Position numbers and translations under genes: made by a program. A DNA stretch of 64,000 nt. It comes from Alphaproteobacteria bacterium (GTDB lineage Bacteria; Pseudomonadota; Alphaproteobacteria; CAAHEQ01; UBA3637). Positions 640-61,641 of this stretch are shown here, piece after piece. The stretch's first letter is position 1; each line of letters starts with the position of its first letter. The stretch is taken from NCBI GenBank assembly GCA_045638265.1, contig JAZUBA010000050.1, positions 41,983 to 105,982 on the forward strand, written 5' to 3'. The notes beneath the pieces were generated by a model. That model was not told the DNA's origin. It did not search any database and saw nothing but the letters and a program-made list of their open reading frames with translations.

Positions 640-1236
640 ATGATTTACGGATATATTCGCGTCTCCACTGATAAGCAAACCACAGAAAACCAAAAATTCG
701 AAATTGAACAATTTTGTCTTCAAAACAAGATTGTTATTGACAAATGGATAACTGAAACCATCAGTGCTACAAAAGAATTAAATAAACGAAAACTTGGAAA
801 ACTGCTCAAACAAATCAAAAATGATGATATTGTAATTGCTACTGAACTGTCTCGCTTGGGTAGAAATTTGTTGCAAGTGATGAGTATTCTACACCATTGT
901 ATGAGTATCGGGTGTCAAGTTTGGACGATTAAAGACAATTATCGTCTTGGAAAGACCATAGAAAGCAAGGTCTTAGCATTTGCCTTTGGTTTGTCTGCTG
1001 AGATTGAAAGAGATCTCATTTCTCAAAGAACAACCGAAGCCTTAAAACGTCTTCAAAATGAAGGAAAAGTCTTAGGTAGACCAAAAGGCAAGAAAAACCC
1101 AAAACGCAAATTAGATGGTAAAATCTTTCAAATTAAAGAACTTTTAGAAAAGAAAGTCTCAAAGAATAAGATTGCTAAAATCCTTAAAGTGGATATTAAA
1201 ACCTTAAATAAGTTCATTTGTGAATGTTTGACTTAA
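640..1236 (+). CDS. Serine recombinase (resolvase/invertase family, Hin/Gin/TnpR-like)
   Basis: N-terminal YIRVSTDKQ catalytic serine motif, ~198 aa size, C-terminal HTH (KIAKILKVDIKTLNKF). Confidence 0.85.
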   Translation: MIYGYIRVSTDKQTTENQKFEIEQFCLQNKIVIDKWITETISATKELNKRKLGKLLKQIKNDDIVIATELSRLGRNLLQVMSILHHCMSIGCQVWTIKDNYRLGKTIESKVLAFAFGLSAEIERDLISQRTTEALKRLQNEGKVLGRPKGKKNPKRKLDGKIFQIKELLEKKVSKNKIAKILKVDIKTLNKFICECLT

Positions 1237-9179: not shown

Positions 9180-10034
9180 ATGACAACACCTCTCATTTCT
9201 GTTTTAATGCCGGTATACAATACTGATGAAATTTATTTAAGAGAAGCCATTGAGTCAGTTTTAAACCAAACATATACGAATTTTGAGTTTATTATTTGCG
9301 ATGATAAATCAACAAATAATGCCTTATCCGTGATTCAATCTTATCATGACAAACGTATACGACTCATTCAAAATGAAAAAAATTCAGGTATCAGTGTAAC
9401 GCGTAACAAATTGTGCAAAATGGCAAAAGGTAAATATATTGCCCTTGCAGATAGTGACGATATTTCTTTACCAACCCGTTTTGAAAAACAAATTGCTTTT
9501 TTAGAATCTCATGCCGATATATCTCTTGTCGGAGCGTGGTATGAACGTTTTCCTCAAAAATTTATACCGCAACTCCCTGAAAAAGTATCACTTGTAGATA
9601 TGTTAAAATGGTGTGCTGTTGCTCAACCGGTTGTTATGTATCGTAAAACTGATTTTGAAGACAAAAATTTAATCTACGATACAAATTTATCTTGTGCCGT
9701 TGATTACGATATGTGGTGTCGGGCATTAATGAGTGGATTAAAAATGGCTAATATCCCAGAGGTTTTATTAAAATACAGATGGCATGAAAAGAATATTTCA
9801 CATACCAAACAAGATTTACAAATTGAAACAACAAAAAATATAAAAAAAAGAATTGCTCAATATTTAACACAAGATAAAGATTTACAAGACAAATTATTGC
9901 AATTAAATGACAGCACTCCTTCCAAAAAAATATATTTATTTGGAAAAATACCGTTTTTGAAAATCAAATCAAAAAATGAGTTGCAGAAATGGTACTTGTT
10001 CGGATGTTTGCCGATTTTAAAAATAAAGAAATAA
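9180..10034 (+). CDS. Family 2 glycosyltransferase
   Basis: ISVLMPVYNTDEIYLREAIESVLNQTY, DSDD. Confidence 0.8.
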   Translation: MTTPLISVLMPVYNTDEIYLREAIESVLNQTYTNFEFIICDDKSTNNALSVIQSYHDKRIRLIQNEKNSGISVTRNKLCKMAKGKYIALADSDDISLPTRFEKQIAFLESHADISLVGAWYERFPQKFIPQLPEKVSLVDMLKWCAVAQPVVMYRKTDFEDKNLIYDTNLSCAVDYDMWCRALMSGLKMANIPEVLLKYRWHEKNISHTKQDLQIETTKNIKKRIAQYLTQDKDLQDKLLQLNDSTPSKKIYLFGKIPFLKIKSKNELQKWYLFGCLPILKIKK

Positions 10035-15112: not shown

Positions 15113-15960
15113 TTAACCTCCAACTTCATTTTTATTTTAATAAAAGGTATATATTTTAAGTATTTCGGTTTGCAAGAGCCGACTTGTTTCATTTTAAAAA
15201 CAGGAATACAACCAAACAATTTTCCCCGAATAATATAATTATTATTCAAATGAACTTTATTCCACAATTCAGATTGGTCTTGTTTCAAAAACTGATGAAT
15301 TTTATCTACTGACTCCAAACGTTTATTATCTTGCAATTTAGATGTATTTGTTTCATGCCAACGATATTTCATTAACACTTTTTGAATATTATAAAATTTT
15401 GTTTTTCCGATTAAACGTGCCCAAAGAGCATAATCTTCAGCAGGGGTAAATTCTTTTTCATACCTGATATTATGCTTTTTTAACACATCAGCACGTATCA
15501 TGGCACTGGGGTGAAATACAGCACAACCGGATATTAAATAGTCTTCTATATCATTGTTGTATTCCGGTAATTTTGAAGCTTTTTTTATTTTCGGGAAACG
15601 AATATATAGACCACCTATCACGCCGATTTCAGGGGTTTCATCCAAAATTTTTACTTGCATTTCAAACCGATTGGATACAGCTATATCATCATGATCCATA
15701 ACCGCTAAGTACTCACCTTGTGCTAAATCAATCAATTTATTTCGTGATGGGGTAATGCCTAAATTTGCCTCATTTTTGAAATATTTTATTCGTTTGTCGT
15801 GATAAGATAAAACAACATCTTCCCGTGTCTCTTCGGGACAATCATCTAAAATCAGAAATTCAAAATCCGTATAAGTTTGCGATAAAATACTTTCTATGGC
15901 TTCTTTTAAATATGTTTCATTTGTTTTATAAATAGGCATTAAAACCGAAATTTTAGGCAT
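15109..15960 (-). CDS. Family 2 glycosyltransferase
   Basis: ISVLMPIYKTNETYLKEAIESILSQTY, DHDD; C-terminus paralogous to the 9180-10034 C-terminus. Confidence 0.8.
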   Translation of the reverse strand: MPKISVLMPIYKTNETYLKEAIESILSQTYTDFEFLILDDCPEETREDVVLSYHDKRIKYFKNEANLGITPSRNKLIDLAQGEYLAVMDHDDIAVSNRFEMQVKILDETPEIGVIGGLYIRFPKIKKASKLPEYNNDIEDYLISGCAVFHPSAMIRADVLKKHNIRYEKEFTPAEDYALWARLIGKTKFYNIQKVLMKYRWHETNTSKLQDNKRLESVDKIHQFLKQDQSELWNKVHLNNNYIIRGKLFGCIPVFKMKQVGSCKPKYLKYIPFIKIKMKLEVK

Positions 15961-16045
15961 TGATGTTCCTTTTTCATAATTAAAAACAATATGAATTAAA
16001 AGTACAAATTCTCATGACAAAAGTCAAGCACTTTTTAAAAACATT

Positions 16046-16654
16046 TTATGCTTTAATACTTTTGTTTGAATGAATATAAATAAGAGGTAAAATAACTAAC
16101 GAAAGGATATATTTTAAAATGATGTTAAACATAAAAATCTGAAACACAACAGCTTGTGAATACACAAAACTAAATGCCCCGTAACAGAAGATAAAATTAT
16201 CAATCGGCACACTGACACCATTACTGGCAAGCACTCTGCCCCATTTATGTTTATTGCCGAATTTTAATGTATACCGATGATAAATATGTGTATCAATTAA
16301 TTCACTGACTAATTGTGCCAATAATGAAAAAACAACAATACGCCATACAGGAGATAAAACCGTATCAAAATAGTGTGATGTAATAACCGATTTATCAGCC
16401 GGAAAAATACCGATAAAACAAAAATATAACGCCATAAATAAATTGATTAAAACAGCAGTCCAAATACAAACATATGTTGTTTTTTTATCAGTTGCCTGAT
16501 GGATTACATCTCTCAATGTAAAAGTTAAAGGATATAAAAAAACACCCATATCAACGGCATAATTAAAAACAAAACCAACCTTAATACTGGCGATATTAGA
16601 TAAAAGTTGAAATGAAACATACACAATAATACACACAAGTGCATAAATCGGCAT
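16046..16654 (-). CDS. Polytopic membrane protein, YhhQ/DUF165-like (possible queuosine-precursor transporter)
   Basis: ~6 TM, 202 aa; FLYPLTFTLRDVIHQ region resembles the YhhQ family. Confidence 0.45.
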   Translation of the reverse strand: MPIYALVCIIVYVSFQLLSNIASIKVGFVFNYAVDMGVFLYPLTFTLRDVIHQATDKKTTYVCIWTAVLINLFMALYFCFIGIFPADKSVITSHYFDTVLSPVWRIVVFSLLAQLVSELIDTHIYHRYTLKFGNKHKWGRVLASNGVSVPIDNFIFCYGAFSFVYSQAVVFQIFMFNIILKYILSLVILPLIYIHSNKSIKA

Positions 16655-40691: not shown

Positions 40692-41354
40692 ATGAATCAA
40701 ATGAAACCGGAAATGGCAAAAATTGTCAAAGATATGTATCAACTCCCGTTTAACAAAATTCAACCCTCTATTCAGGCAATCAAAAAATTATTAAAAGAAG
40801 GTCATGATATTGATGCACAAAATGAAAAAGGAGATACATTACTTCATGTGGCATTAAATTGTTTTGCATTACGAGGCGGAAATACAATTCAAGCCGGTTT
40901 GCCAAACGAACGTGAAACGGTTTTAGATGTTTTATATTTAACAACAAAGCATCATCCCAATCCGTTTATCAAGAACAATGATAATTTAACGCCATCTATG
41001 TTGGCGGCTCAAACACGATTAACAAACGAATGGCAAATACTTTCATCTTATGAGCGCTTATATCAAGCCGAAAAACAAGATTTACAGGCAAAAGAAACAG
41101 GAAAAGCTTTACTGGGAATGCTTTATTTTATGGCAAATCATTATTATGAACAATACGGGCTTTCAAACGAAAATATTCCAAACGGCATTGATAAAAACAC
41201 AATAGCGGGAGCTGAAATGATTTATGAAACAGCTCAAAAGTTGGGAGCAAATAAGAATATGCCAACAGCACAATTTATAGCAGAGCATATCAATAAAATA
41301 AAGCAAAAACATCATATTTGTAAGCATTTATTCGGAGAGAGAGAAAAATCGTAA
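40692..41354 (+). CDS. Ankyrin-repeat-like protein
   Basis: GDTLLHVALN... and NNDNLTPSMLAA repeat-like segments. Confidence 0.5.
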   Translation: MNQMKPEMAKIVKDMYQLPFNKIQPSIQAIKKLLKEGHDIDAQNEKGDTLLHVALNCFALRGGNTIQAGLPNERETVLDVLYLTTKHHPNPFIKNNDNLTPSMLAAQTRLTNEWQILSSYERLYQAEKQDLQAKETGKALLGMLYFMANHYYEQYGLSNENIPNGIDKNTIAGAEMIYETAQKLGANKNMPTAQFIAEHINKIKQKHHICKHLFGEREKS

Positions 41355-41415: not shown

Positions 41416-41492
41416 CGCGGGGTAGAGCAGTCCGGTAGCTTGTCAGGCTCATAACCTGAAGGTCGTGAGGTTCAAATCCCACCCCCGCAACC
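41416..41492 (+). tRNA. Initiator tRNA-fMet (CAT)
   Basis: CGCGGGGTAGAGCAGTCCGGTAGCTTGTCAGGCTCATAACCTGAAGGTCGTGAGGTTCAAATCCCACCCCCGCAACCA; C1xA72 mismatch; close to E. coli tRNA-fMet. Confidence 0.85.
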
Positions 41493-41496
41493 AATA

Positions 41497-41700: not shown

Positions 41701-41778
41701 AAAGAAAGCATCTTTTTATTTTAATATATCTTGAAGATAAAAACCTTATTTTTCAATTTGTTATGCGTTACAGATAAA

Positions 41779-41930
41779 CGTACGTTTATGTGCAACGATT
41801 TCGCCTATAAGCCCAAAAATGGGAGAACATAAGGAAATATCACAAACAAGCCAATGTTTTCAAATCACAAAAATTAAAAAAATAAAAAAAAATACATAAA
41901 AATAAAAAAAACATTGCAAACAAACACAGC
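41779..41930. repeat. IR-bounded element B (distal IR intact, proximal IR degenerate) upstream of gene B
   Basis: cgtacgtttatgtgcaac (41779-41796) then gatttcgcctataag... near-identical to element A interior; right arm cattgcaaacaaacacagc degenerate. Confidence 0.6.
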
Positions 41931-41997
41931 TTCTGCTATAATTAAATTTAAAGAATTTAATTTATTATATAATTTAAATAACAACATGAGAAGTTAA

Positions 41998-43188
41998 ATG
42001 CAACAAGATACAAACGAACGTGGCCGCTCATTAACAGAAATGTTGGGTGTTTTAGCTGTTATTGGCGTCCTTTCAATTGGTGGAATTCAAGGTTATCGTT
42101 ATGCTATGAATAAATACCGTGCCAATAATGTATTAAATGAAATCAATATGGCATCACATCAACTATCAACTATATTGTTGACATCAATGGAAGAACAAAA
42201 GGTTATTTCATTAGGTAATCCCTATGATAACGGAACAATCAGAACAGAAAATTATCCGTTTGATTATGGGTGTGGCAATTATGATAGTTTAGAACGGGCT
42301 TGTCAACAAGCTGAGGAAGGATATTGGATGACTATCGGTGGTATTGAACAAAATCTCTGTCAAAATATACTTTCAAATTCAGAACATTTACCTTATTTTG
42401 TTGAACAACGTCTTAATGAGGAAACAGTAACAGATGATTCAATTTGCGAAGAAGATAATGAAATTATGTTGTTATTCAACTCAAATGGTTCAGGTGAATT
42501 GGCTCCTGATGTTAGTAATAAAGAACTGACGGATGTTGATTGTCCAATCAATACATCAGTTGATGGTCTGGGTGGATATGCTGTAACAGAAATGGATAAA
42601 ATATCCGGAAAAATGATGGATTGCCATTGCACAAAAATGAATACAAAATACGATGGCGATGGTATATGTGTTGCATTACCTGAAAAATGTAAATCAAACA
42701 ATGATTGTAATAAAGGTGATTATTGTGATATTACAAGTTACGGTAGCTCCAATTGTATGACAAATACAACCAGTATCACTGGAATATGCCGAAATGCAAA
42801 AGCCGATATCAGACCCGCCCCATCTAACAACTCATCTCCATTTATTGTTTCTGAACACAAAATGATGTGGTGGGGTGCTAAAAACTTCTGTCAAGCATTG
42901 AAAAAAACATTAGTTGAAGTAAATGATTTTGAATGTGCCCATTCAATCTGCCGAAGCGGATGTACCGCCAAAAGCGGGTATTGTCATGAAGATACATCAA
43001 TAAGTGTATCAACCAAAAGTTCAACGAATATTTCTCCTGTTATGCAAGAATTAAAAAAGGCATTTAGTAGTACATACGGTTGGACAAATTCCAGTTATAC
43101 CAGTTGTAATCCGTACTTTGTTTATTTTTTTGAAGGATACATCTATACAAATGGACCAAATCGTACACATCCTGCCATATGCAAGTAG
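41998..43188 (+). CDS. Family member B: TadE/prepilin-like N-terminus plus cysteine-rich domain with C-type-lectin-like module
   Basis: ERGRSLTEMLGVLAVIGVLSIGGIQGYRYAMNKY; MMWWGAKNFCQALKKTLVEV; conserved N-domain shared with A and D. Confidence 0.8.
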   Translation: MQQDTNERGRSLTEMLGVLAVIGVLSIGGIQGYRYAMNKYRANNVLNEINMASHQLSTILLTSMEEQKVISLGNPYDNGTIRTENYPFDYGCGNYDSLERACQQAEEGYWMTIGGIEQNLCQNILSNSEHLPYFVEQRLNEETVTDDSICEEDNEIMLLFNSNGSGELAPDVSNKELTDVDCPINTSVDGLGGYAVTEMDKISGKMMDCHCTKMNTKYDGDGICVALPEKCKSNNDCNKGDYCDITSYGSSNCMTNTTSITGICRNAKADIRPAPSNNSSPFIVSEHKMMWWGAKNFCQALKKTLVEVNDFECAHSICRSGCTAKSGYCHEDTSISVSTKSSTNISPVMQELKKAFSSTYGWTNSSYTSCNPYFVYFFEGYIYTNGPNRTHPAICK

Positions 43189-52152: not shown

Positions 52153-53313
52153 TTATTCACACACAGCTAATCCCAATGGACTGGTTTTATGATTGCGATA
52201 AACATATCCTGCATAATTCGCTCCAAGATCTAATACAAACGAATAACTACCATCAGAATTAGATACCCATATAGCATTTGAATCATTATCAAAACGTAAT
52301 CTTAAATCTGCTAATGTAGTAGATGTATCACATACTGCTGGTTCTGCTGCGCCTCCATCTAAACAATCAGACAAATGACATTGTGTTTTTTTTGCAGGAA
52401 GTTTAATTGCAACATCGTTAAAACTAGGAAGTTTTTTTCCAAGTGCATGACAAAAGTTCATAGCCGTGTACCAATCTGTACCTCTACCAGGCCTTGAATC
52501 TGTTTGTAATTTTCCTAAAACTTGTTGATCCGATGTCATTGCTTGACACTTTGCTGTACTATAATAGCAATAGTAACCGCTCTTGACACCACCACAATCT
52601 TTGTTTCCTGAATAATTATTTACATTGCAAGATTTACCATCCAATCTTTCAACACATTCACCATTTAAACACATGCCATTATCTTCGCCACCTTTATAAT
52701 TACATGTTTTAAATTCATAAGACGTTATATCACCTGTATCCGGATCACAACATTGCTCATTATGTCTTAAACAACAATTAGATTCTACACAACGATTTGT
52801 ACCCGAACACCATTTGTATGGTGTTTGATTACAACTTTCCTCTGTTTTATAGTCACTAGCGACATGTACTGTAGATAAATCATTATTAAAAGATAAAACA
52901 ACGGTTGTATTATCTTCACAAACAAGTGGCTCAAATCCCTTAACAATATCGCTTATCATATTTTGTAAGGCTTGACATACTTCTTTACTTACAGAGCCTA
53001 CTTTTAAGGAAAACTTTTTATCAATCTTTGTCCACTGGGCATCACCATACTCGTCATAAACAGTATTATCAAAAACAGAATCCCCAATTAAACGTTCAAA
53101 TTCACTTAACGATGGTTGGTTTTCGGACATAATTTGACTAGAAACAATATGTGCCCGTTGATTTAATTCTTCTAATATTTTATTTGCTTTATACTTATTC
53201 CAAGATAAAGTATAACCGGCAATTCCACCAAATGATAAAACGCCGATAATGGCTAAAACGCCTAATATTTCAACCATTGAACGACCAGCTTCATTTTGTA
53301 CTTTATTCATCAT
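52153..53313 (-). CDS. Family member C (divergent): TadE/prepilin-like N-terminus plus cysteine-rich domain with lectin-like module
   Basis: EAGRSMVEILGVLAIIGVLSFGGIAGY; WYTAMNFCHALGKKLPSF; start at MMNKVQ (RBS aaagggag). Confidence 0.75.
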   Translation of the reverse strand: MMNKVQNEAGRSMVEILGVLAIIGVLSFGGIAGYTLSWNKYKANKILEELNQRAHIVSSQIMSENQPSLSEFERLIGDSVFDNTVYDEYGDAQWTKIDKKFSLKVGSVSKEVCQALQNMISDIVKGFEPLVCEDNTTVVLSFNNDLSTVHVASDYKTEESCNQTPYKWCSGTNRCVESNCCLRHNEQCCDPDTGDITSYEFKTCNYKGGEDNGMCLNGECVERLDGKSCNVNNYSGNKDCGGVKSGYYCYYSTAKCQAMTSDQQVLGKLQTDSRPGRGTDWYTAMNFCHALGKKLPSFNDVAIKLPAKKTQCHLSDCLDGGAAEPAVCDTSTTLADLRLRFDNDSNAIWVSNSDGSYSFVLDLGANYAGYVYRNHKTSPLGLAVCE

Positions 53314-53373
53314 AATCTCCCTTTTTTTGTTAAAATTGTTCAATAAAATCAATTAATCTTGATTGTAACAAAA

Positions 53374-53511
53374 GGGTCGTTTATTTGCAACACTTTTTTT
53401 TATATTTTTGCAAATTTTTTTGATTTTGGCTTATTGGCGGATTATTGCGGGCTGGTGAGAAATGGTGGAATAAGGCGGTTTAGGTGCGAAATCGTTGCAA
53501 ATAAACGACCC
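53374..53511. repeat. IR-bounded element C upstream of gene C, internal segment inverted relative to A and D
   Basis: Perfect 18-bp IRs gggtcgtttatttgcaac / gttgcaaataaacgaccc; gcgaaatc lies at the gene-distal arm, whereas in A it is at the gene-proximal arm; flanking leader ttttgttacaat in the same orientation as A. Confidence 0.7.
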
Positions 53512-53806
53512 TTTATTTGCCTTCTTGTTTCATTGAAAAATAACAATTTTTTTATAGATATATGATTTATATCCCTCAACAACTCATATACCTTATCCGG
53601 CGATGCACATTCATATGCTATACCTATTTCATTCGTTATATCTTTACAAAAAATCAATACAACTGCTTCCATTGTTCTATCAGTATTTTTAATATACTAA
53701 ATAAAAAGATTAATAAAATCAAATAGAAATAAAATAAATCAAAAAAACCAAAAAAAATGCTTGCAATTTTTTTTGAAAGACTGTATAAATCATTCTGTTC
53801 TTTGAT

Positions 53807-53883
53807 GGATGTGTAGCTCAGGTGGTTAGAGTATTACGTTGACATCGTAAGGGTCGCAAGTTCGAGTCTTGCCACATCCACCA
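53807..53883 (+). tRNA. tRNA-Val (GAC)
   Basis: GGATGTGTAGCTCAGGTGGTTAGAGTATTACGTTGACATCGTAAGGGTCGCAAGTTCGAGTCTTGCCACATCCACCA. Confidence 0.85.
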
Positions 53884-54010: not shown

Positions 54011-55102
54011 CTATCGGGAATGAGAGTTAGTCAACCGCCGTTTTACCGAACGTTTTTTATTCCAACGAATTTCGCGTTCTTCCGCATTAGACAAGGTGTG
54101 TGGTAAGAAACGTAAACGAGCAACCGCTATTTTTAAAGACTTTTCCAGCTGTTTTAACATAAATAACCGATATGGCCTGTCATTTCCTTTAACAGAGTAA
54201 GTTTCCAATGTTTTGATATATTGTGCTCTGTCTTTCGGATCAATAATAATCGGCGGTAAATTATTTTGGATTAAAATGGTATTCATCAATAACCGTGATG
54301 CCCGACCGTTACCATCTGTAAACGGATGAATTCCGGCCATATCAAAGTGGAACTTTAATGCCCGTTCAATCGGATTGGATATTTTATTAACATTTTTGAC
54401 CATATCTGCCATTAATTCAGGCACTTTCATATAGTTGGGTAAAACAGTTTGTGTATCAGGAAAACGAACTTTAATTTGACGATAAACACCGGCACGTTCC
54501 GGTTCAGTTGCCAAAACAAAACGATGCAAATTTTTAATATCATCTTCCGTAATTGGTGCTTTATTGTCAGCAAAAGCCAATGTTAAAGCGTGTTCAAACG
54601 CTTTTGAGGTTGCATTCCGTTCAGCATTAAAAATTTTACGAATCTGGTCTTTTTCGGCCTCTGTTGTCGCCCGTTTTAACTTCATATTCATTTCCAAACT
54701 ATTGTAAGAATGAATAATTTCGTCACACATATATCTCCAAAACTGCCCTTGCTCAAAACAACAGTTCAACAATTCGTTATATATTGATTTTTTACGGGAA
54801 ATCCGTTTTTTTATTAATGCAATTTCAGGCGTATCCGTCATTAATTTCGGACTTGTTTTTTTCTTTTTGATTTGTGTCGCCGTAGCTGGAGTTTGTACAT
54901 TGAAAGATATATTTTTAAGTGCTGATTTTTGAGAAACAACCGATGTTTTATGTTTCATTAATTCAGCTTTAACATCCGGCATACTTAATAAAAGAGATCG
55001 CTTTTCTTCGGCAGGCAATGTTGTAAATTTGTCATATTTATCTGCAATATCAATACTGCTATCATTAAAAAAGGAAACTAATTCGCTATTTAATTCAGTC
55101 AT
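54011..55102 (-). CDS. Fic/Doc-family protein (canonical HPFTDGNGRASR motif) with N-terminal extension
   Basis: HPFTDGNGRASRLLMNTIL. Confidence 0.8.
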   Translation of the reverse strand: MTELNSELVSFFNDSSIDIADKYDKFTTLPAEEKRSLLLSMPDVKAELMKHKTSVVSQKSALKNISFNVQTPATATQIKKKKTSPKLMTDTPEIALIKKRISRKKSIYNELLNCCFEQGQFWRYMCDEIIHSYNSLEMNMKLKRATTEAEKDQIRKIFNAERNATSKAFEHALTLAFADNKAPITEDDIKNLHRFVLATEPERAGVYRQIKVRFPDTQTVLPNYMKVPELMADMVKNVNKISNPIERALKFHFDMAGIHPFTDGNGRASRLLMNTILIQNNLPPIIIDPKDRAQYIKTLETYSVKGNDRPYRLFMLKQLEKSLKIAVARLRFLPHTLSNAEEREIRWNKKRSVKRRLTNSHSR

Positions 55103-55242: not shown

Positions 55243-56046
55243 ATGAATGAATACAATGTTATATGCATAAAATGGGGTTCGGTCTATCAAGCAAGCGACG
55301 TAAATAAGCTTTATTCAATGATTAAAAACAATACATCTTATCAGATTCATTTTTATTGCTTTACAGATGACACATCAGGGTTAGATTCGCAAATTATCAC
55401 CAAACCGTTGCCACAATTTCAAAATATCAAACAAGGCGAGGAAGAATGGACAACAAAATACGCTTATAAAAAAGAAGCAGCATTATGTGATGATAATCTG
55501 GGCGGATTAACGGGTCAAAGAGTGTTCTTTTTTGATTTAGATTCGCTGATTGTCGGGAATTTAGATGAATTTTTTGAATATCCGCAAGGAGATAAATTTT
55601 ATATCATCAACGATTGGAATACAAAGGGCGATTCGGTCGGACAGGCAAGTTGTTATTCGTTTGTGGTTGGCACTTTGGGATATATTAAAACATATTTTGA
55701 ACAACATCCAAAAGAAATTGTGGAAAAATTCTATACGGCTTCACAGGAATATTTGTCTCACAAGGTTATTGAAAAAGAAGGGAAACTCAATTTTTGGCCG
55801 GATAATTGGTTTAAAAGTTTTCGTTTCCATTGTTTGCCAAAGTGGTATTTACGCTCTTTTGTAGCACCGCAACTCCCCCAAATTAAAGGTTTAAAAATGA
55901 TTGCTTTTCATGGGCTACCGGATATTAACGATGCTATTTTAGGAATATGGTGTTCAGATAAAAGCAATGGAAAATATCCACGAGGAATAAAAAAATTATA
56001 CAAGCATTTATTACCCTGCCCATGGATTAATGATTATTGGAAATAA
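55243..56046 (+). CDS. DxD-motif glycosyltransferase-like protein (effector-like)
   Basis: QRVFFFDLDSLIVGNLDEFF DxD region; no signal peptide. Confidence 0.4.
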   Translation: MNEYNVICIKWGSVYQASDVNKLYSMIKNNTSYQIHFYCFTDDTSGLDSQIITKPLPQFQNIKQGEEEWTTKYAYKKEAALCDDNLGGLTGQRVFFFDLDSLIVGNLDEFFEYPQGDKFYIINDWNTKGDSVGQASCYSFVVGTLGYIKTYFEQHPKEIVEKFYTASQEYLSHKVIEKEGKLNFWPDNWFKSFRFHCLPKWYLRSFVAPQLPQIKGLKMIAFHGLPDINDAILGIWCSDKSNGKYPRGIKKLYKHLLPCPWINDYWK

Positions 56047-56168: not shown

Positions 56169-56246
56169 TGGGGCGGAAGATCGGACTCGAACCGACGACA
56201 TCTGGTACCACAAACCAGCGCTCTAACCAACTGAGCTACATCCGCC
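56169..56246 (-). tRNA. tRNA-His (GTG) with encoded G-1
   Basis: Minus-strand read GGCGGATGTAGCTCAGTTGGTTAGAGCGCTGGTTTGTGGTACCAGATGTCGTCGGTTCGAGTCCGATCTTCCGCCCCA. Confidence 0.8.
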
Positions 56247-56522
56247 AACGCAGAAACACTTTTAACAGATATTTTTTATATTGTCAAGCAAAAAAAATGA
56301 AAATTATTACTTTTTTTATTTTTAAACATAAAAAGCAATCGTTTAAAGGTTACAAAGGTATGAAGATTGTGTAAAACATAAGGCGATATATCAGACAAAC
56401 ATCAACTTGGGCTGTATATATGGTGGGATACTGCTGTACGTTAGAGATAAATTTATAGTATATATAAATCATATATCTATAAAAAAATTGTTATTTTTCA
56501 ATGAAACAAGAAGGCATATTAA

Positions 56523-56668
56523 GGTACGTTAAATTGCAACAACTTTTTTCACTTTTTTGCATTTTTTTTTGTTTTTTTCGATTTTTAATGGTTGGCGAAT
56601 TTGTCATAGTTCCCTTGATTTTGGGTGTTTTGGCACTTATATGCGAAATCGTTGCACATAAAGGTACC
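56523..56668. repeat. IR-bounded element D upstream of gene D (same relative orientation as A)
   Basis: ggtacgttaaattgcaac ... gcgaaatcgttgcacataaaggtacc; internal TTGATT-N16/17-T(T)ATAT(G) (56615-56643) reads toward gene D; leader ttacaatgg...ttattttcaa homologous to A. Confidence 0.65.
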
Positions 56669-56718
56669 TTTAATTACAATGGGGATAGTGTTATTTTCAA
56701 TAAAAGGGGACTAAAATA

Positions 56719-58350
56719 ATGAAAAATTCAAAAAACTTATGCTATAATCAACTCAAAATACAACAATTTGGTTCAAAAACAGTTCAATATCCGCTTTCAA
56801 ATGCCTGTTTTACTCGTCAAAATCGCTTAAAAACCGTATATCATTCTGCGTACGCAAATGAACACGGTCGATCAATGGTGGAAATGCTGGGTGTTTTAGC
56901 TGTTGTTGGTGTGCTTTCAATCGGTGGAATTCAAGGTTATACGTATGCCATGAATAAATATCGGACGAATCAGATTCTCAATGAACTTAATATTGCCTCA
57001 CATCAGTTGGCAACCGTATTGTTAAGAAATGAAAATGAAGAATTAGAGTTATCATTAGGTGAGCCATACGACAGCGGACGAATTGCATCAGCAGATTATG
57101 CGTTTAATTACGGATGTGGTAATGGATTGGCAGAAGAAGATTGTAGTATAGATGAAACAGGCTATTGGTTTGCACTAAATGGTGTACCTGAAACAATTTG
57201 TAAAAATATGATGACAATGGTAGACGGTATGCCTTATTTAGCTGAAAAAGAATTAAATGGGACGATTGTGGCAGATGGTACGGCTTGTGCTGATGAAAAT
57301 AACGAAATTACGTTTTTATTTAATTCGGATGGCTCGGGTGAGCTTTCAGAAAACACAGGCAATAATGACGGAACAAGCGGTGAAGAAAATGGTGGAAATG
57401 GTAAAAATGGAGATGATGAAACAGAAGAAACACCACCTGTTGACTGTGGTTCACATGGAACGTGGAATAAAAACTTGAACAAATGTGTTTGTCAAAGTGG
57501 TTGGGGCGGTAACACATGTGAAAAATCCATTGATGAAACATGTTCTGAAAATGGCTACTGGATGTCATCACGAGGATTATGTGTTTGCAAAGAGGGATTC
57601 GGTGGTTTAAATTGTGATCAAGATCCTCGTGAAGTTTGTAACAATAGAGGTACATGGGATGGCTGTGGCGGTGGTTGTTTATGTGAAAGCGGTTATGGTG
57701 GAACATACTGTCAAAACGAAATAAATGATAAATATTGTAATAATGGCGTATGGGTGAATAATACTTGGGGTACCGATGGTTATTGTAAATGTAATACAGG
57801 ATTTGGTGGTCAAAATTGCTCTATGACTCAAGAAGAAGCAAATGCACAATATTGTAATGATGGCGGTGGTATTTGGAAGAGTTCAATGGATGGTGGATTT
57901 TGCAAATGTACTAATGGTTTAGGAGGTAGGTATTGCACTGAAGAAGTTGATAAAACGTGCAGTGGAAAAGGAACATGGAAAGAGGCAACAGATACAAGAG
58001 AAGCACATTGTGATTGTTATATGAATAAAGGTTATGGTCCAGATTGTTCCTTAACGTACGCTGAAATGGAAAAAGGCGATACTTGTAGTAATAACGGTCG
58101 TTGGTATAACGGTCGTTGTGAGTGCGACGATGGATATACTGGCGATGATTGTTCCATAACATGTCAACATAGAATTGAATTTTCTGGAATTGATGGTTAT
58201 TGTACCTGTGATGCTGGTTGGGCTGGCGAAGGTTGTGATGTTTTAGAAAAAAACTATTGTATAAATGGGGTTTGGAATACGCAAGCCAAACATTGTCTTT
58301 GTGAAAACGGATGGATAGGTGAAAGTTGCGATATACCAGCTAACAACTAA
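56719..58350 (+). CDS. Family member D: TadE/prepilin-like N-terminus plus conserved N-domain plus eight EGF-like repeats
   Basis: EHGRSMVEMLGVLAVVGVLSIGGIQGYTYAMNKY; repeated CxCxxG[WFY]xGxxC units (CVCQSGWGGNTC, CVCKEGFGGLNC, CLCESGYGGTYC, CKCNTGFGGQNC, CKCTNGLGGRYC, CECDDGYTGDDC, CTCDAGWAGEGC, CLCENGWIGESC). Confidence 0.8.
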   Translation: MKNSKNLCYNQLKIQQFGSKTVQYPLSNACFTRQNRLKTVYHSAYANEHGRSMVEMLGVLAVVGVLSIGGIQGYTYAMNKYRTNQILNELNIASHQLATVLLRNENEELELSLGEPYDSGRIASADYAFNYGCGNGLAEEDCSIDETGYWFALNGVPETICKNMMTMVDGMPYLAEKELNGTIVADGTACADENNEITFLFNSDGSGELSENTGNNDGTSGEENGGNGKNGDDETEETPPVDCGSHGTWNKNLNKCVCQSGWGGNTCEKSIDETCSENGYWMSSRGLCVCKEGFGGLNCDQDPREVCNNRGTWDGCGGGCLCESGYGGTYCQNEINDKYCNNGVWVNNTWGTDGYCKCNTGFGGQNCSMTQEEANAQYCNDGGGIWKSSMDGGFCKCTNGLGGRYCTEEVDKTCSGKGTWKEATDTREAHCDCYMNKGYGPDCSLTYAEMEKGDTCSNNGRWYNGRCECDDGYTGDDCSITCQHRIEFSGIDGYCTCDAGWAGEGCDVLEKNYCINGVWNTQAKHCLCENGWIGESCDIPANN

Positions 58351-58570: not shown

Positions 58571-58692
58571 TTAATTCTCTAAAAAAGGAATTTCTAACCC
58601 AAAAGCAGCTAGTATTCCGCCAATTAATATTGTAACCAACGGTTTTTTATTTGCTCTGATGTATGTTATAAATCGTCCAAACATTGTCATTT
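58571..58692 (-). CDS. Small membrane protein translationally coupled to endolysin (spanin/lysis-accessory candidate)
   Basis: ATGA overlap with endolysin stop; GGAGGTG RBS; MTMFGRFITYIRANKKPLVTILIGGILAAFGLEIPFLEN with one TM. Confidence 0.4.
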
Positions 58693-59118
58693 CACCTCCT
58701 TTCCTTTTCGCATAAGTGTTGATAAAACGGTTGCACGTCGCCCAACCTGCTCTGCCCATCGGCTATTAAGCATTTCTTCCGATGCACCACCATAATCACG
58801 AATCATTAACGCTTTTATCATACGTTTAAACCCTAAAAATCCGTTTATTCCTAAATTAAACACCATCTCAATCACAACGCCTTGACGGATAAGATTGAGC
58901 GTTTCAAACCAAGAAAACGTATCTCGGCATAAGTTTTCGCAAGATTTTAAATCGTTTTCCAACAGATAAAATGCTTCATTTTGCGATAATCCAACATCGT
59001 CCAAATTGCGTCCGATACCAATTGTCAATTTACCTGCCGAACAACGATAAGGTTTTAAATGCAATCCTTCGTGTTTAAGGATGCGATTTTTAAGCGTAGA
59101 TGTAACAGCTGATTTCAT
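58687..59118 (-). CDS. Phage-type lysozyme (T4 lysozyme/GH24-like endolysin)
   Basis: ILKHEGLHLKPYRCSAGKLTIGIGRNL matches the T4 lysozyme catalytic region (EG...TIGIG). Confidence 0.75.
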   Translation of the reverse strand: MKSAVTSTLKNRILKHEGLHLKPYRCSAGKLTIGIGRNLDDVGLSQNEAFYLLENDLKSCENLCRDTFSWFETLNLIRQGVVIEMVFNLGINGFLGFKRMIKALMIRDYGGASEEMLNSRWAEQVGRRATVLSTLMRKGKEVK

Positions 59119-60963: not shown

Positions 60964-61641
60964 TTATATAAAAGCACCCATACCGGCAGCCCCAAGTTGC
61001 AAACCTGATTTTAAGACACTCATAGTATTATTAAAGCTTTGTTGTTTGGCGGCTGCCCGTTGAGCATTAACACCCTGCTGGACAGAATATTGATTTAATC
61101 GGTTTTCATATCCTGTCGGGGTGTTTTGTAATAGTGTATAAATTTGATTGACAGCATTAATCCGTGAATTGTTATTCAATTCTGCCGCACTTATACTGTT
61201 GTTTAAACTTTGTGTAAAGGCATCTTGTCCCGTTGTTACACTGTTATAGGCGGCTTGATTTAATGCATTGTTTTGCTGTTGTGTTAAATCGTTAACAGCT
61301 CGCTGATACGCTTCGGAACCAACACTCAAACCCTGATTTGCCAAACGGGTTTCTAAATCGGCCATTTGGGTTTGATATTGGGGTGTTAATTTATCTAAAT
61401 ATGATTGATACACTGCATTTTCAGCCCGTTGACGTGCTTCATCGGAACCATCAACCGAATAAATAAAATCGGGCATTGAGGATAACGATTGCGACAAACG
61501 ATAGGCTTCCTGTCCCATCAGATGAGAGGCATTATCCGAATACGAAGTATCGTAATTTTTTAAATAGTTTAAGTATGAATCCCCTGCACTTGTGTCCGCT
61601 TTAACATTTGTGCCAAGGACTGAACCAATAGCTTTACTCAT
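60964..61641 (-). CDS. Hypothetical Q/N-rich protein (possibly phage-derived)
   Basis: 225-aa ORF; C-terminal GLQLGAAGMGAFI. Confidence 0.4.
   Translation of the reverse strand: MSKAIGSVLGTNVKADTSAGDSYLNYLKNYDTSYSDNASHLMGQEAYRLSQSLSSMPDFIYSVDGSDEARQRAENAVYQSYLDKLTPQYQTQMADLETRLANQGLSVGSEAYQRAVNDLTQQQNNALNQAAYNSVTTGQDAFTQSLNNSISAAELNNNSRINAVNQIYTLLQNTPTGYENRLNQYSVQQGVNAQRAAAKQQSFNNTMSVLKSGLQLGAAGMGAFI

What the first reader, a model, noticed from the sequence alone, without database searches (positions are those of the whole stretch)
57440..58350. Eight tandem EGF-like repeats in a bacterial protein
Gene D encodes eight consecutive units fitting C-x-C-x(2)-G-[WFY]-x-G-x(2)-C with the inter-Cys spacing typical of eukaryotic EGF domains (as in tenascin or teneurin). 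This suggests mimicry of a host extracellular matrix or receptor ligand, or a horizontally acquired eukaryotic module.
Basis: seen in the sequence. Interest (0 to 1): 0.65.

Follow-up and report, generated by a model that had tools for sequence, protein, structure and literature searches.

The report
Phase-variable pilin carrying EGF-like repeats
A gut alphaproteobacterium encodes a pilus-subunit-like protein whose outer half is a rod of nine tenascin-like EGF repeats. A flippable DNA switch sits in front of the gene, so this looks like one member of a large, switchable set of surface adhesins rather than a stray eukaryotic gene.

Summary
Gene D (56719-58350, +, 543 aa) carries nine tandem EGF-like units, not eight: seven match the strict motif and two are degenerate. 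Pfam EGF_TEN and EGF_Teneurin score above their curated cut-offs, and the AlphaFold model matches Notch, Delta and Jagged EGF structures.

The units are a four-cysteine variant. EGF C1 is absent and C3 is replaced by Trp.

The N-terminal 205 aa are a type IV pilin-like module: invariant Gly-1 and Glu+5, a 55-residue helix plus sheet, and best structural matches to the type IVb pilins CofA, TcpA and PilS. The module is joined to the EGF array by a disordered acidic linker.

This module heads a family with at least 567 loci in uncultured gut Alphaproteobacteria. Four copies lie in this window, with interchangeable C-termini.

Family genes are preceded by inverted repeats around a ~110-nt segment. 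At gene D's own locus, a near-identical strain has the 138-bp stretch 56527-56664 inverted (250/256 identity after in-silico inversion, 184/256 as is).

Best reading: a phase-variable modular pilin adhesin. Host mimicry or eukaryote-to-bacterium transfer is possible but not shown. Nothing indicates recent transfer.

The parts
56719..58350 (+). Gene D, 543 aa: leader, pilin-like module, linker and nine EGF-like units
   Evidence: ORF list. The RBS AAGGGG at 56704-56709 lies 9 nt before the ATG. Orthologues at 89%, 71% and 58% identity.
56719..56868 (+). 50-aa hydrophilic leader ending in Gly50 (predicted prepilin-peptidase site G|RSMVE)
   Evidence: No other in-frame start codon. Gly and Arg are invariant in the 51-sequence alignment. 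The leader is 94% and 72% conserved in P0002 and P0001.
56869..57333 (+). Type IV pilin-like module (aa 51-205): hydrophobic alpha-1 helix with Glu+5, then a beta-sheet head with conserved Cys161/Cys190
   Evidence: AlphaFold pLDDT 82.6, helix 7-61 plus four strands. Foldseek top hits are the type IVb pilins CofA, TcpA and PilS, probability 0.93-1.0. Invariant G, R and E.
57334..57435 (+). Gly/Asn/Asp/Glu-rich disordered linker (aa 206-239)
   Evidence: pLDDT below 50 in the model. This is the recombination breakpoint between modules.
57445..57519 (+). EGF-like unit 1 (aa 243-267)
57541..57615 (+). EGF-like unit 2 (aa 275-299)
57637..57711 (+). EGF-like unit 3 (aa 307-331; carries an extra Cys316)
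57736..57819 (+). EGF-like unit 4 (aa 340-367)
57853..57936 (+). EGF-like unit 5 (aa 379-406; degenerate, Leu at the aromatic position)
57958..58047 (+). EGF-like unit 6 (aa 414-443; degenerate, 9-residue C5-C6 loop)
58084..58152 (+). EGF-like unit 7 (aa 456-478; the most tenascin-like unit)
58162..58236 (+). EGF-like unit 8 (aa 482-506; Phe instead of Trp at the C3 position)
58258..58329 (+). EGF-like unit 9 (aa 514-537; with unit 3, the best conserved among orthologues)
56521..56545 (.). Left inverted-repeat arm of the upstream switch (contains the TA crossover core at 56525-56526)
   Evidence: the repeat finder; junction analysis
56527..56664 (.). 138-bp invertible segment. In this window it is in orientation A, with the T-tract end away from the gene.
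   Evidence: Inverting it in silico raises identity to the orthologous upstream region of L201 from 184/256 to 250/256.
56646..56670 (.). Right inverted-repeat arm (TA core at 56665-56666)
56652..56680 (+). Promoter-like core: TTGCAC, 17 nt, TACAAT. The -35 lies in the right arm; the -10 lies in fixed DNA.
   Evidence: Promoter scan. Conserved upstream of all four paralogues and the L001 orthologue.
41998..43188 (+). Paralogue with the same pilin-like module and a Cys-rich WWxAxNFC-type C-terminus. Its switch arms are at 41766-41796 and 41914-41942, and its segment is in the opposite orientation (B).
31658..33469 (-). Paralogue (603 aa, Thr-rich linker, two WWxAxNFC-type modules). Switch arms at 33487-33538 and 33638-33689, orientation A.
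52153..53352 (-). Paralogue (399 aa). Switch arms at 53350-53396 and 53489-53535, orientation B.
640..1236 (+). 198-aa small serine recombinase, the candidate invertase for the switches. The link is inferred, not shown.
   Evidence: Pfam Resolvase 112.7 bits. Best solved relative is Gin DNA-invertase over the full length, E 1e-12. A 51%-identical homologue lies about 5 kb from a family gene in L025.

Best explanation
Gene D encodes a modular type IV pilin-like surface protein.

Inferred biogenesis. The protein inserts into the inner membrane by its N-terminal hydrophobic helix. A prepilin peptidase removes the 50-aa leader after Gly50. The periplasmic part is oxidised to form about 20 disulfides.

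Inferred presentation. The pilin module (aa 51-205) is then taken up by a type IV filament machinery. The filament presents the C-terminal module at its tip or on its surface.

Shown anatomy. [quoted passage not shown] No other domain follows the EGF array, so the array itself is the functional, ligand-binding part. It most likely acts as an adhesin for host, mucus or other cell-surface ligands (inferred).

Shown family context. The gene is one of many paralogues that share the pilin module and exchange C-terminal modules by recombination at the linker.

Shown switch. A 138-bp DNA segment, flanked by about 25-bp inverted repeats with a TA crossover core, sits directly upstream of a fixed -10 element and is found inverted in a sister strain.

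Inferred regulation. Inversion places either an A-tract (UP-element-like) or a G+C-richer sequence next to the -35, which would make expression phase-variable. A small serine invertase probably catalyses the inversion. In this window gene D is in the majority orientation, which is presumably low or OFF.
For: EGF array:
- Pfam EGF_TEN 88.6 bits against a cut-off of 65; EGF_Teneurin 69.7 against 24.3.
- Sequence matches in the PDB to DLL1, DLL4, WIF-1 and teneurin.
- AlphaFold pLDDT 79 with paired beta-hairpins in each unit.
- Foldseek matches Notch1, DLL1, Jagged1, SCARF1 and integrin EGF domains at E down to 4e-9.
- Unit alignment shows C2, C4, C5 and C6 kept, with Trp at the C3 position.

Pilin module:
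- Gly-1, Arg+1 and Glu+5 are invariant in 51 relatives.
- The model has a 55-residue helix plus a four-strand sheet.
- The best PDB folds are type IVb pilins.
- Pilin-only family members of about 125-190 mature residues with 8-aa leaders exist in related MAGs.
- A Peptidase_A24 gene is present in a MAG that also has EGF-bearing members.

Modularity:
- P0002 is 99% identical in the pilin module but 55% in the EGF part.
- P0007 is 95% identical in the pilin module with an unrelated C-terminus.
- Four paralogues lie in the window, and at least 567 family loci occur in gut alphaproteobacterial MAGs.

Switch:
- Inverted-repeat arms were found.
- In the window, arm pairs occur only upstream of family genes, with none in shuffles.
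- 48 of 112 family genes share the architecture: 43 in one orientation and 5 in the other.
- One switch sits between two divergent pilin genes in L002; coordinates suggest the same arrangement in L016.
- The same locus is inverted in L201: 250/256 identity after in-silico inversion against 184/256 as is.
Against: - No Pfam N_methyl signature in gene D or in any of 51 relatives.
- Arg at +1 and leaders of 40-70 aa are atypical for pilins.
- No assembly ATPase was found within 1.25 Mb of flanks around about 80 family loci. Prepilin peptidase was found only once, in another MAG. The rest of this genome could not be examined.
- Fold matches to pilins are modest (E about 1e-3, TM 0.41-0.46).
- Disulfide connectivity could not be checked because no model coordinates were available.
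- The effect of the switch on transcription is inferred from sequence only. The -35/-10 core survives in both orientations.
- The ligand is unknown.
Confidence: 0.6

Rival explanations
1. Host mimicry by a eukaryote-derived module. The EGF array was acquired from an animal or protist. It acts as a mimic of tenascin, Notch-ligand or EGF-family ligands and engages host receptors such as EGFR, integrins or Notch. This could coexist with pilus display.
For: - After family members, the best hits among 1.84 billion proteins are vertebrate tenascins (lamprey, E 3e-45) and a cnidarian Notch-like protein.
- Unit 7 is nearly a tenascin consensus apart from Trp at the C3 position.
- The repeat period of 32 aa compares with 31 aa in tenascin.
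- The bacteria live in mammalian guts.
- Other eukaryote-like genes lie nearby: a serpin and a weak ankyrin match in the window, and ankyrin and sialyltransferase-like genes beside an orthologue.
Against: - All family members use the 4-Cys form, whereas eukaryotic hits use 6 Cys.
- The 4-Cys form also occurs in Polyangiaceae and other non-gut bacterial proteins, sometimes mixed with 6-Cys units.
- Per-unit scores do not separate tenascin from bacterial or protist units. The high tenascin ranks partly reflect summing over many repeats.
- GC3 is native.
- Family EGF arrays are as little as 28% identical to each other, so any transfer is ancient.
- No receptor-binding determinants were tested.
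Confidence: 0.15
2. The protein is not a filament subunit. The N-terminal helix is only a signal-anchor, or a type II-secretion-like targeting signal. The protein then stays tethered in the inner membrane or periplasm, or is released, with the EGF rod acting as an envelope spacer or a secreted factor.
For: - No pilin signature was detected.
- The leader is unusually long and carries an invariant Arg at +1.
- No machinery genes lie next to any of about 80 family loci.
- Dozens of paralogues per genome is unusual for minor pilins.
Against: - Gly-1 and Glu+5 are invariant, which is hard to explain for a plain anchor.
- The head domain folds like type IVb pilins.
- Pilin-sized members exist with short basic leaders.
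- Phase variation by DNA inversion is typical of exposed surface structures (PMC4747536).
- A prepilin peptidase is present in a sister MAG.
Confidence: 0.2
3. Artefact: eukaryotic contamination, or a chimeric assembly that joins a bacterial gene to host DNA.
For: Only the eukaryote-like look of the repeats.
Against: - There is a single uninterrupted ORF with native codon composition.
- It lies in a bacterial chromosomal context with tRNAs, ribosomal protein L9, AddAB and TsaD.
- The same fusion appears in independent assemblies from different studies and hosts.
Confidence: 0.01

Closest known systems
Modular type IV pilins, e.g. Streptococcus sanguinis PilB (vWA module), PilC (lectin module) and ETEC CofB (PMC8179133)
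   Same: An N-terminal pilin module is joined by a linker to a grafted binding module. The proposed role is filament-displayed adhesion. The head domain's best fold matches are type IVb pilins from the CofA/TcpA systems.
   Different: - The grafted module is an array of nine EGF-like units. No EGF terms appear in that paper's supplementary files.
- This family fails the IPR012902/N_methyl signature on which that survey relied.
- It has Arg at +1 and leaders up to about 70 aa.
- It is expanded to many paralogues per genome.
- It is preceded by a DNA-inversion switch.
Tenascin/teneurin-type EGF-like repeats of animals (Pfam EGF_TEN, EGF_Teneurin)
   Same: The C4-x-C5-x8-C6 core with G-aromatic-x-G, a repeat period of about 31-32 residues, scores above the curated Pfam cut-offs, and an EGF-like predicted fold.
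   Different: - Only four cysteines per unit; the C1-C3 disulfide is replaced by a conserved Trp.
- No FN3, fibrinogen or YD-barrel partners.
- Variable insertions of up to 8 residues in the C2-C4 loop.
- In teneurin EGF-2 and EGF-5, a single Cys is replaced by Tyr or Phe to leave a free partner for dimerisation (PMC6297184). Here both partners are gone.
Bacteroides fragilis invertible promoters under the global serine recombinase Mpi (PMC4747536, PMC10403206)
   Same: Many dispersed surface-structure loci in a gut commensal are each preceded by a short segment flanked by a shared inverted repeat. A small serine recombinase gene is present in the genome. Both orientations are seen in nature.
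   Different: - The phylum differs (Alphaproteobacteria).
- The target genes are pilin-like proteins, not capsule operons.
- The segment is only about 110-140 bp.
- The -10, and after recombination the -35, stay in place. The switch seems to swap the upstream A-tract rather than carry the whole promoter (inferred).
- The recombinase-site link is untested.
- The resemblance of the arm core AAACGTACGT to the Mpi site consensus is from memory and could not be verified.
EGF_TEN-type repeat proteins of other bacteria, e.g. a Polyangiaceae DUF5123 protein (P0138, MCL2779095.1) and a CARDB-containing protein (P0213)
   Same: The same four-cysteine unit, C-x2-HG-x(5-8)-C-x-C-x2-G-[FY]-x-G-x2-C, in tandem arrays on predicted surface proteins.
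   Different: Those proteins use Sec signal peptides, beta-helix or CARDB domains, and C-terminal anchors. None has a pilin-like N-terminus.

Membership tests
EGF-like domain superfamily (Pfam EGF_TEN PF25024 / EGF_Teneurin PF23106) | Score above the curated family threshold | tested here: met
   EGF_TEN scores 88.6 bits against 65, and EGF_Teneurin 69.7 against 24.3. EGF_DL_JAG and JAG1-like_EGF2 are just above 27. The generic EGF (PF00008) gives no hit, and EGF_2 scores 19.4, below its 22.1 cut-off.
EGF-like domain superfamily | Six conserved cysteines (C1-C3, C2-C4, C5-C6) | tested here: not met
   There are four conserved Cys per unit. C1 is absent, and C3 is Trp in 8 of 9 units. Family members are mostly 4-Cys, whereas eukaryotic hits are 6-Cys.
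EGF-like domain superfamily | EGF fold (two small beta-hairpins per unit) resembling solved EGF domains | tested here: met
   The AlphaFold model has pLDDT 79.3 with paired strands in every unit. Foldseek against the PDB gives 45 hits at E<=1e-3; those listed are EGF-containing proteins.
EGF-like domain superfamily | Disulfide connectivity C2-C4 and C5-C6 in the structure | not testable with these tools
   Model coordinates are not exposed. The connectivity is inferred only from alignment to tenascin and WIF-1.
Calcium-binding EGF (EGF_CA) | D/N-x-D/N-E/Q-C1 and beta-hydroxylation consensus | tested here: not met
   No PF07645 hit at E<=10. C1 and its preceding motif are absent.
Type IV pilin / type IV filament subunit | Class III signal peptide: leader ending in Gly-1, about 20 hydrophobic residues, Glu at +5 | tested here: met
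   The sequence reads HG|RSMVEMLGVLAVVGVLSIGGI. G, R and E are invariant in 51 relatives.
Type IV pilin / type IV filament subunit | Recognised by the N_methyl / prepilin cleavage-methylation signature (PF07963, IPR012902) | tested here: not met
   No hit at E<=10 for gene D, and none in 51 relatives at E<=0.01. The only NCBIfam match is a weak one, PRK10506 at E 0.068.
Type IV pilin / type IV filament subunit | Long alpha-1 helix packed on an antiparallel sheet, similar to solved pilins | tested here: met
   The model has helix 7-61 plus four strands, pLDDT 82.6. The top PDB folds are CofA (9iuf), TcpA (8uhf) and PilS (3fhu), probability 0.93-1.0, TM 0.33-0.46.
Type IV pilin / type IV filament subunit | Cognate prepilin peptidase and assembly machinery (ATPase, platform, secretin) in the genome | tested here: inconclusive
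   One Peptidase_A24 (54.7 bits) was found in sister MAG Lapin-005__bin43, which has EGF-bearing members. None was found in the window. No T2SSE-type Walker motif occurs in 1.25 Mb of flanks.
Modular pilins (sensu Raynaud et al. 2021, PMC8179133) | Pilin module, linker, and an extra non-pilus domain in one polypeptide | tested here: met
   The modules have discordant histories.
Modular pilins | Display of the module by the filament and a direct role in binding | not testable with these tools
   Requires microscopy or biochemistry.
Invertible promoter switch (inverton) driven by a site-specific recombinase | Short segment flanked by inverted repeats just upstream of the regulated gene | tested here: met
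   The arms lie at 56521-56545 and 56646-56670. The same architecture occurs at 48 of 112 family genes. No pairs appear in shuffles.
Invertible promoter switch (inverton) | Both orientations observed at one and the same locus | tested here: met
   Window against L201: 184/256 identity as is, 250/256 after inverting 56527-56664. The flanks and the pilin module are near-identical (592/615 nt).
Invertible promoter switch (inverton) | Orientation controls transcription of the downstream gene | not testable with these tools
   Only sequence inference is available. An A-tract abuts the -35 in the minority orientation.
Invertible promoter switch (inverton) | Dedicated or global invertase acting on the repeats | tested here: inconclusive
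   A 198-aa serine recombinase lies at 640-1236, and its best match is Gin invertase. It is 55 kb away, and a homologue lies near a family gene in only one other locus.

The most novel reading that the evidence does not exclude
Uncultured gut Alphaproteobacteria carry a previously unrecognised, signature-negative class of type IV pilin. It has been expanded into a repertoire of dozens of modular tip adhesins per genome. These bear eukaryote-like binding modules: tenascin-type four-cysteine EGF rods, lectin-like Cys-rich domains and mucin-like tracts. Each gene is individually switched by a shared mini-inverton that flips an UP-element-like A-tract next to a fixed core promoter, under a global serine invertase. 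This would be an alphaproteobacterial, pilus-based counterpart of the Bacteroides Mpi capsule system. The EGF arrays would bind host matrix or receptor molecules.
Probability: 0.3. Interest if true: 0.85.

Novelty: new variant of a known kind. Interest (0 to 1): 0.68.

Why it matters
If the reading holds, a widespread but uncultured group of gut Alphaproteobacteria (found in human, ruminant and rabbit samples, among others) builds its host or environment interface from one pilin scaffold. That scaffold carries interchangeable, individually switchable binding modules.

This would matter in four ways:
- It extends the modular-pilin concept to EGF arrays.
- It shows that standard pilin signatures miss a family with hundreds of loci.
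- It provides a new example of global DNA-inversion control outside Bacteroidales.
- It offers a natural four-cysteine EGF scaffold, with Trp in place of the C1-C3 disulfide, of interest for protein folding and engineering.

It also gives concrete targets for asking how these bacteria attach in the gut: the invertible segment and the EGF rod.

Tried and rejected
Searches that led nowhere:
- The word-indexed homology search with the EGF region alone found only 3 hits. It was replaced by the exhaustive HMMER search.
- The search for related loci with the EGF alignment failed because no stretch was conserved enough.
- Exact-protein contig look-ups for gene D, P0003 and P0059 found nothing on record.
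- The single metagenome scan, with the 14-mer GCGAAATCGTTGCA, was unspecific: 120 hits and none with a pilin gene.
- Regex searches for PilB/GspE/CpaF-type ATPases near family genes found only ClpX, UvrB-like and other unrelated P-loop proteins.
- The Mpi repeat consensus recalled from memory could not be verified: no paper holds the string and PMC193581 is not held.

Negative results:
- There is no DNA-level tandem repeat in the gene.
- A PDB sequence search with the C-terminus of paralogue 41998-43188 gave nothing. Its 'C-type-lectin-like' label therefore rests only on a motif and on one relative's FGE-sulfatase hit.
- One 'short pilin' counted (L025) is a false positive of my regex, sitting inside a recombinase gene.

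Ideas rejected:
- Eukaryotic contamination or assembly chimera.
- Recent transfer from the host, given native GC3 and the 4-Cys form shared with free-living bacteria.
Full report
**1. The observation**

The ORF at 56719-58350 (+) encodes 543 aa. It has a good ribosome-binding site, AAGGGG, 9 nt before the ATG.

Two further units are degenerate, at aa 395 (Leu at the aromatic position) and aa 431 (a one-residue-longer loop). That gives nine contiguous units from Cys243 to Cys537, nt 57445-58329.
- In 100,000 shuffles of the region, no shuffle had more than one match.
- Tandem Repeats Finder finds no DNA-level repeat in the coding region, so the units are old and diverged.

The count is nine rather than eight.

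**2. Are the units EGF?**

- Pfam gives EGF_TEN at 88.6 bits (cut-off 65) and EGF_Teneurin at 69.7 bits (cut-off 24.3), with weaker Delta/Jagged, laminin and EGF_2 matches.
- A phmmer search of the PDB finds DLL1, DLL4, WIF-1, Notch1 and teneurins.
- An AlphaFold model of aa 236-543, built on 24 sequences, has pLDDT 79.3 and pTM 0.66. It shows a pair of short strands, twice, in every unit.
- Foldseek against the PDB returns 45 hits at E<=1e-3; those listed are EGF-containing proteins: Notch1 EGF20-24, DLL1, Jagged1, SCARF1 and integrin-beta EGF domains.

The units are not canonical, however. Aligned with lamprey tenascin units, they keep C2, C4, C5 and C6. They lack C1 and have Trp (8 of 9 units; Phe in unit 8) exactly where C3 sits. 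The WIF-1 alignment shows the same correspondence. So the C1-C3 disulfide is replaced by an aromatic residue. I could not check disulfide geometry because model coordinates are not exposed.

**3. Where the EGF type comes from**

An exhaustive HMMER search of the EGF region against 1.84 billion cluster representatives gives 412 hits at E<=1e-3.

- After members of the gene's own family, the best hits are vertebrate tenascins: lamprey at 3e-45, then lungfish, catfish, cichlid and newt tenascin-X. A Nematostella Notch-like protein also ranks high.
- Those eukaryotic proteins have six-Cys units, whereas the family members have mainly four-Cys units.
- Four-Cys units of the same kind also occur in other bacteria. 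Examples are a Polyangiaceae DUF5123 protein, a CARDB-domain protein, and two high-GC secreted proteins, one of which alternates 4-Cys and 6-Cys units.
- Per-unit global alignment does not separate the candidate sources. Mean best scores are 70 for tenascins, 64 for other bacteria, 65 for protist-like proteins and 82 for distant family members.
- GC3 of the EGF part is 0.227, which matches the genome range of 0.24-0.31.

'Tenascin-type EGF' is therefore an accurate description. Recent acquisition from a host is not supported, and an ancient transfer in either direction remains open.

**4. The rest of the protein**

- Residues 45-72 read NEHG|RSMVEMLGVLAVVGVLSIGGIQGY. That is a Gly, then a hydrophobic stretch with Glu at +5, which is the class III (prepilin) signal.
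- In an alignment of 51 relatives, the Gly, the Arg after it and the Glu are invariant.
- An AlphaFold model of aa 43-235 has pLDDT 82.6. It shows a 55-residue N-terminal helix packed on a four-stranded sheet, followed by a disordered tail.
- The best PDB folds are the type IVb pilins CofA (9iuf), TcpA (8uhf) and PilS (3fhu), at probability 0.93-1.0, E about 1e-3 and TM 0.33-0.46.
- The disordered tail is the Gly/Asn/Asp/Glu-rich linker, aa 206-239.
- The standard Pfam N_methyl signature does not detect gene D or any of the 51 relatives. Arg at +1 and a 50-aa leader are atypical.

The module works like a pilin, but it is a signature-negative variant.

**5. The family**

- The full-length search found 592 relatives. 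Most share only the first ~200 aa and carry different C-termini.
- The window itself holds four paralogues: 56719-58350 (+), 41998-43188 (+), 31658-33469 (-) and 52153-53352 (-).
- A scan of one genome per species found at least 567 loci. Nearly all lie in 'uncultured Alphaproteobacteria' MAGs from rabbit, ruminant and human guts, often more than ten per MAG. Eight of the 79 loci retrieved in that scan are aligned with gene D beyond the pilin module (to query residue 410 or further) and may be EGF-bearing.
- Among 114 complete family ORFs in the fetched loci, about 14 are pilin-only (125-190 mature residues, with short basic leaders such as MKKTQESG|RSMVEML). Nine have three or more EGF units. 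Thirty-two have a Cys-rich module with a WWxAxxFC motif.
- Other modules in the family include Mucin2_WxxW, FGE-sulfatase-like domains and Thr/Pro-rich tracts.
- The modules have discordant histories. P0002 is 99.4% identical to gene D in the pilin module but 55% in the EGF array. P0001 is 89.7% and 92.8% respectively. P0007 is 95.5% identical in the pilin module and has an unrelated C-terminus. This points to recombination at the linker.
- EGF unit number varies from 8 to 12 among relatives. Units 3 and 9 are the best conserved, and units 5 and 6 the least.
- This is the 'modular pilin' design described for S. sanguinis PilB and PilC (PMC8179133). That paper's supplementary files contain no EGF terms, and its search relied on the signature that this family lacks.

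**6. Machinery**

- A Peptidase_A24 gene (54.7 bits) lies 6 kb from a family gene in MAG Lapin-005__bin43. Two other loci from that MAG (L004, L043) are aligned with gene D across nearly its full length.
- No homologue is present in the window or the other held loci.
- No PilB/GspE/CpaF-type ATPase motif occurs in 1.25 Mb of flanks.

The family genes are therefore not clustered with assembly genes. Whether the genomes encode the machinery elsewhere could not be tested. This is the main weakness of the filament model.

**7. An invertible switch upstream**

- Aligning the upstream regions of the four paralogues and the L001 orthologue revealed a conserved element. The repeat finder confirmed inverted-repeat arms about 100 nt apart. 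For gene D they lie at 56521-56545 and 56646-56670. For the paralogue at 31658-33469 (-) they lie at 33487-33538 and 33638-33689. For the paralogue at 52153-53352 (-) they lie at 53350-53396 and 53489-53535.
- The arms end in ...TGCAAC on one side of the segment and begin GTTGCA... on the other.
- The right arm supplies a -35-like TTGCAx. Seventeen nt later, a fixed TACAAT follows, and then the RBS and start codon.
- In the window such arm pairs occur only upstream of family genes, and never in shuffles.
- The segments come in two orientations. The segment of the paralogue at 41998 is 86% identical to the reverse complement of the segment of the paralogue at 31658-33469 (44% in the direct orientation). 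Gene D's segment matches the latter directly (70%).
- Across MAGs, 48 of 112 family genes show the architecture: 43 in gene D's orientation and 5 flipped.
- In L002, one segment lies between two divergent pilin-only genes, so a flip would toggle between them. Coordinates suggest the same arrangement in L016, which I did not inspect.
- The decisive result concerns contig L201, which encodes P0002. Its pilin module is 592/615 nt identical to gene D's. Its upstream region has identical flanks but the central part reversed. Inverting window 56527-56664 in silico raises identity from 184/256 to 250/256.
- The 138-bp stretch is bounded by TA dinucleotides at the centres of AAGG-TA-C sites. This central 2-bp position fits the staggered cuts made by serine recombinases (from my own knowledge).
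- A 198-aa serine recombinase at 640-1236 has Gin DNA-invertase as its best solved relative, over its full length. Its link to these sites is only a proposal.
- In the minority orientation, an A-tract (GAAAAAAGT) abuts the -35, like a proximal UP element (from my own knowledge). In gene D's orientation the neighbouring sequence is GCGAAATC. I therefore infer that gene D is in the low or OFF state here. That inference is untested.
- The closest known system is Mpi-driven promoter inversion in Bacteroides fragilis (PMC4747536, PMC10403206).

**8. Surroundings**

The region is chromosomal. It holds ribosomal protein L9, TsaD, AddAB-like nucleases, MltA, seven tRNAs and an rhamnose/glycosyltransferase cluster.

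- Upstream of gene D lie a Fic protein, a glycosyltransferase-like gene and tRNA-His.
- Downstream, on the minus strand, lie a phage-type lysozyme and a gene matching a PHROG virion structural protein.
- This arrangement is syntenic in L001.

**9. Verdict**

The finding is real, and more interesting than a lone EGF array. It is the binding module of a phase-variable, modular, type IV pilin-like protein from a large unannotated family in gut Alphaproteobacteria.

- Shown: the EGF-like identity and its four-Cys anatomy; the pilin-like signal and fold; the family and its module shuffling; and the inversion polymorphism at this locus.
- Inferred: leader cleavage, filament display, adhesin function, transcriptional effect of the switch, and the identity of the invertase.

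Host mimicry and eukaryotic origin remain possible but unproven.

Noticed in passing
window 56521-56670; also 33487-33689, 53350-53535, 41766-41942: Inverted repeats flank a ~110-nt T/A-tract segment upstream of every pilin-like paralogue. The segment is in opposite orientations at different paralogues. At gene D's locus it is inverted in a sister strain (L201).
   Followed up: yes
window 640-1236 (+) and 1361-1477: A 198-aa small serine recombinase whose best solved relative is Gin DNA-invertase. It is followed by four iteron-like direct repeats of about 21 nt (GTTTTCTCCGAACTTT-like). It could be the switch invertase or part of a mobile element.
   Followed up: partly
window 33825-34907 (-): A bacterial serpin (Pfam Serpin, E 4e-50) lies about 135 nt upstream of the switch of the pilin-like paralogue at 31658-33469, on the same strand. 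It is another eukaryote-like protein.
   Followed up: no
window 41998-43188 (+), 31658-33469 (-), 52153-53352 (-): The three other paralogues end in Cys-rich modules with the motif CxxNxDCxxGxYC ... MxWWxAxNFCxALGKxLVS. From memory this resembles C-type-lectin/FGE-sulfatase-like folds, and one relative hits PF03781. Pfam and the PDB give nothing for the window copies.
   Followed up: partly
window 56169-56245 (-), 41416-41493 (+), 53807-53883 (+): tRNA-His, tRNA-Met and tRNA-Val genes each lie within about 500 nt upstream of a pilin-like paralogue. The window holds seven tRNAs in all. This could be coincidence, or tRNA-linked insertion or expression hot spots.
   Followed up: no
window 58687-59118 (-), 60964-61641 (-), and unknown ORFs to 63892: Directly downstream of gene D lie a phage-type lysozyme (GH24) and a gene matching PHROG 6121 (virion structural protein), among unannotated minus-strand ORFs. 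The arrangement is syntenic in L001. It may be a prophage remnant or a phage-derived apparatus.
   Followed up: partly
window 54011-55102 (-) and 55243-56046 (+): A Fic/DOC-domain protein and a glycosyltransferase-like protein (PHROG 1962) lie immediately upstream of gene D. Both are conserved at the same position in L001.
   Followed up: no
L002 ~15380-16620; the same arrangement is suggested by coordinates in L016 ~9360-9770: Two divergently transcribed ~145-aa pilin-only family genes (8-aa leader, MKKTQESG|RSMVEML) share a single invertible segment. This looks like a toggle between two alternative candidate major pilins.
   Followed up: partly
L017 2978-3682 (+): A 234-aa Peptidase_A24 (prepilin peptidase family) lies among housekeeping genes in a sister MAG, about 6 kb from a family gene. 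No second domain was hit, which suggests (untested) a short form lacking the N-terminal part of PilD-type enzymes.
   Followed up: partly
L202 / L203 1786-2739 and 5266-7461: The EGF-pilin orthologue P0004 is flanked by a polysialyltransferase/GT52-like gene and two ankyrin-repeat proteins. These are further host-like features in this lineage.
   Followed up: no
P0203 (2041 aa): A giant protein with a related pilin-like N-terminus (GRSMLEVMFVV...) has more than 20 four-Cys EGF units and additional Cys-rich modules. The same design principle is taken to an extreme.
   Followed up: no
window 40692-41354 (+): A weak ankyrin-repeat match (E 1e-4, below the Pfam cut-off) lies just upstream of tRNA-Met and the paralogue at 41998.
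   Followed up: no
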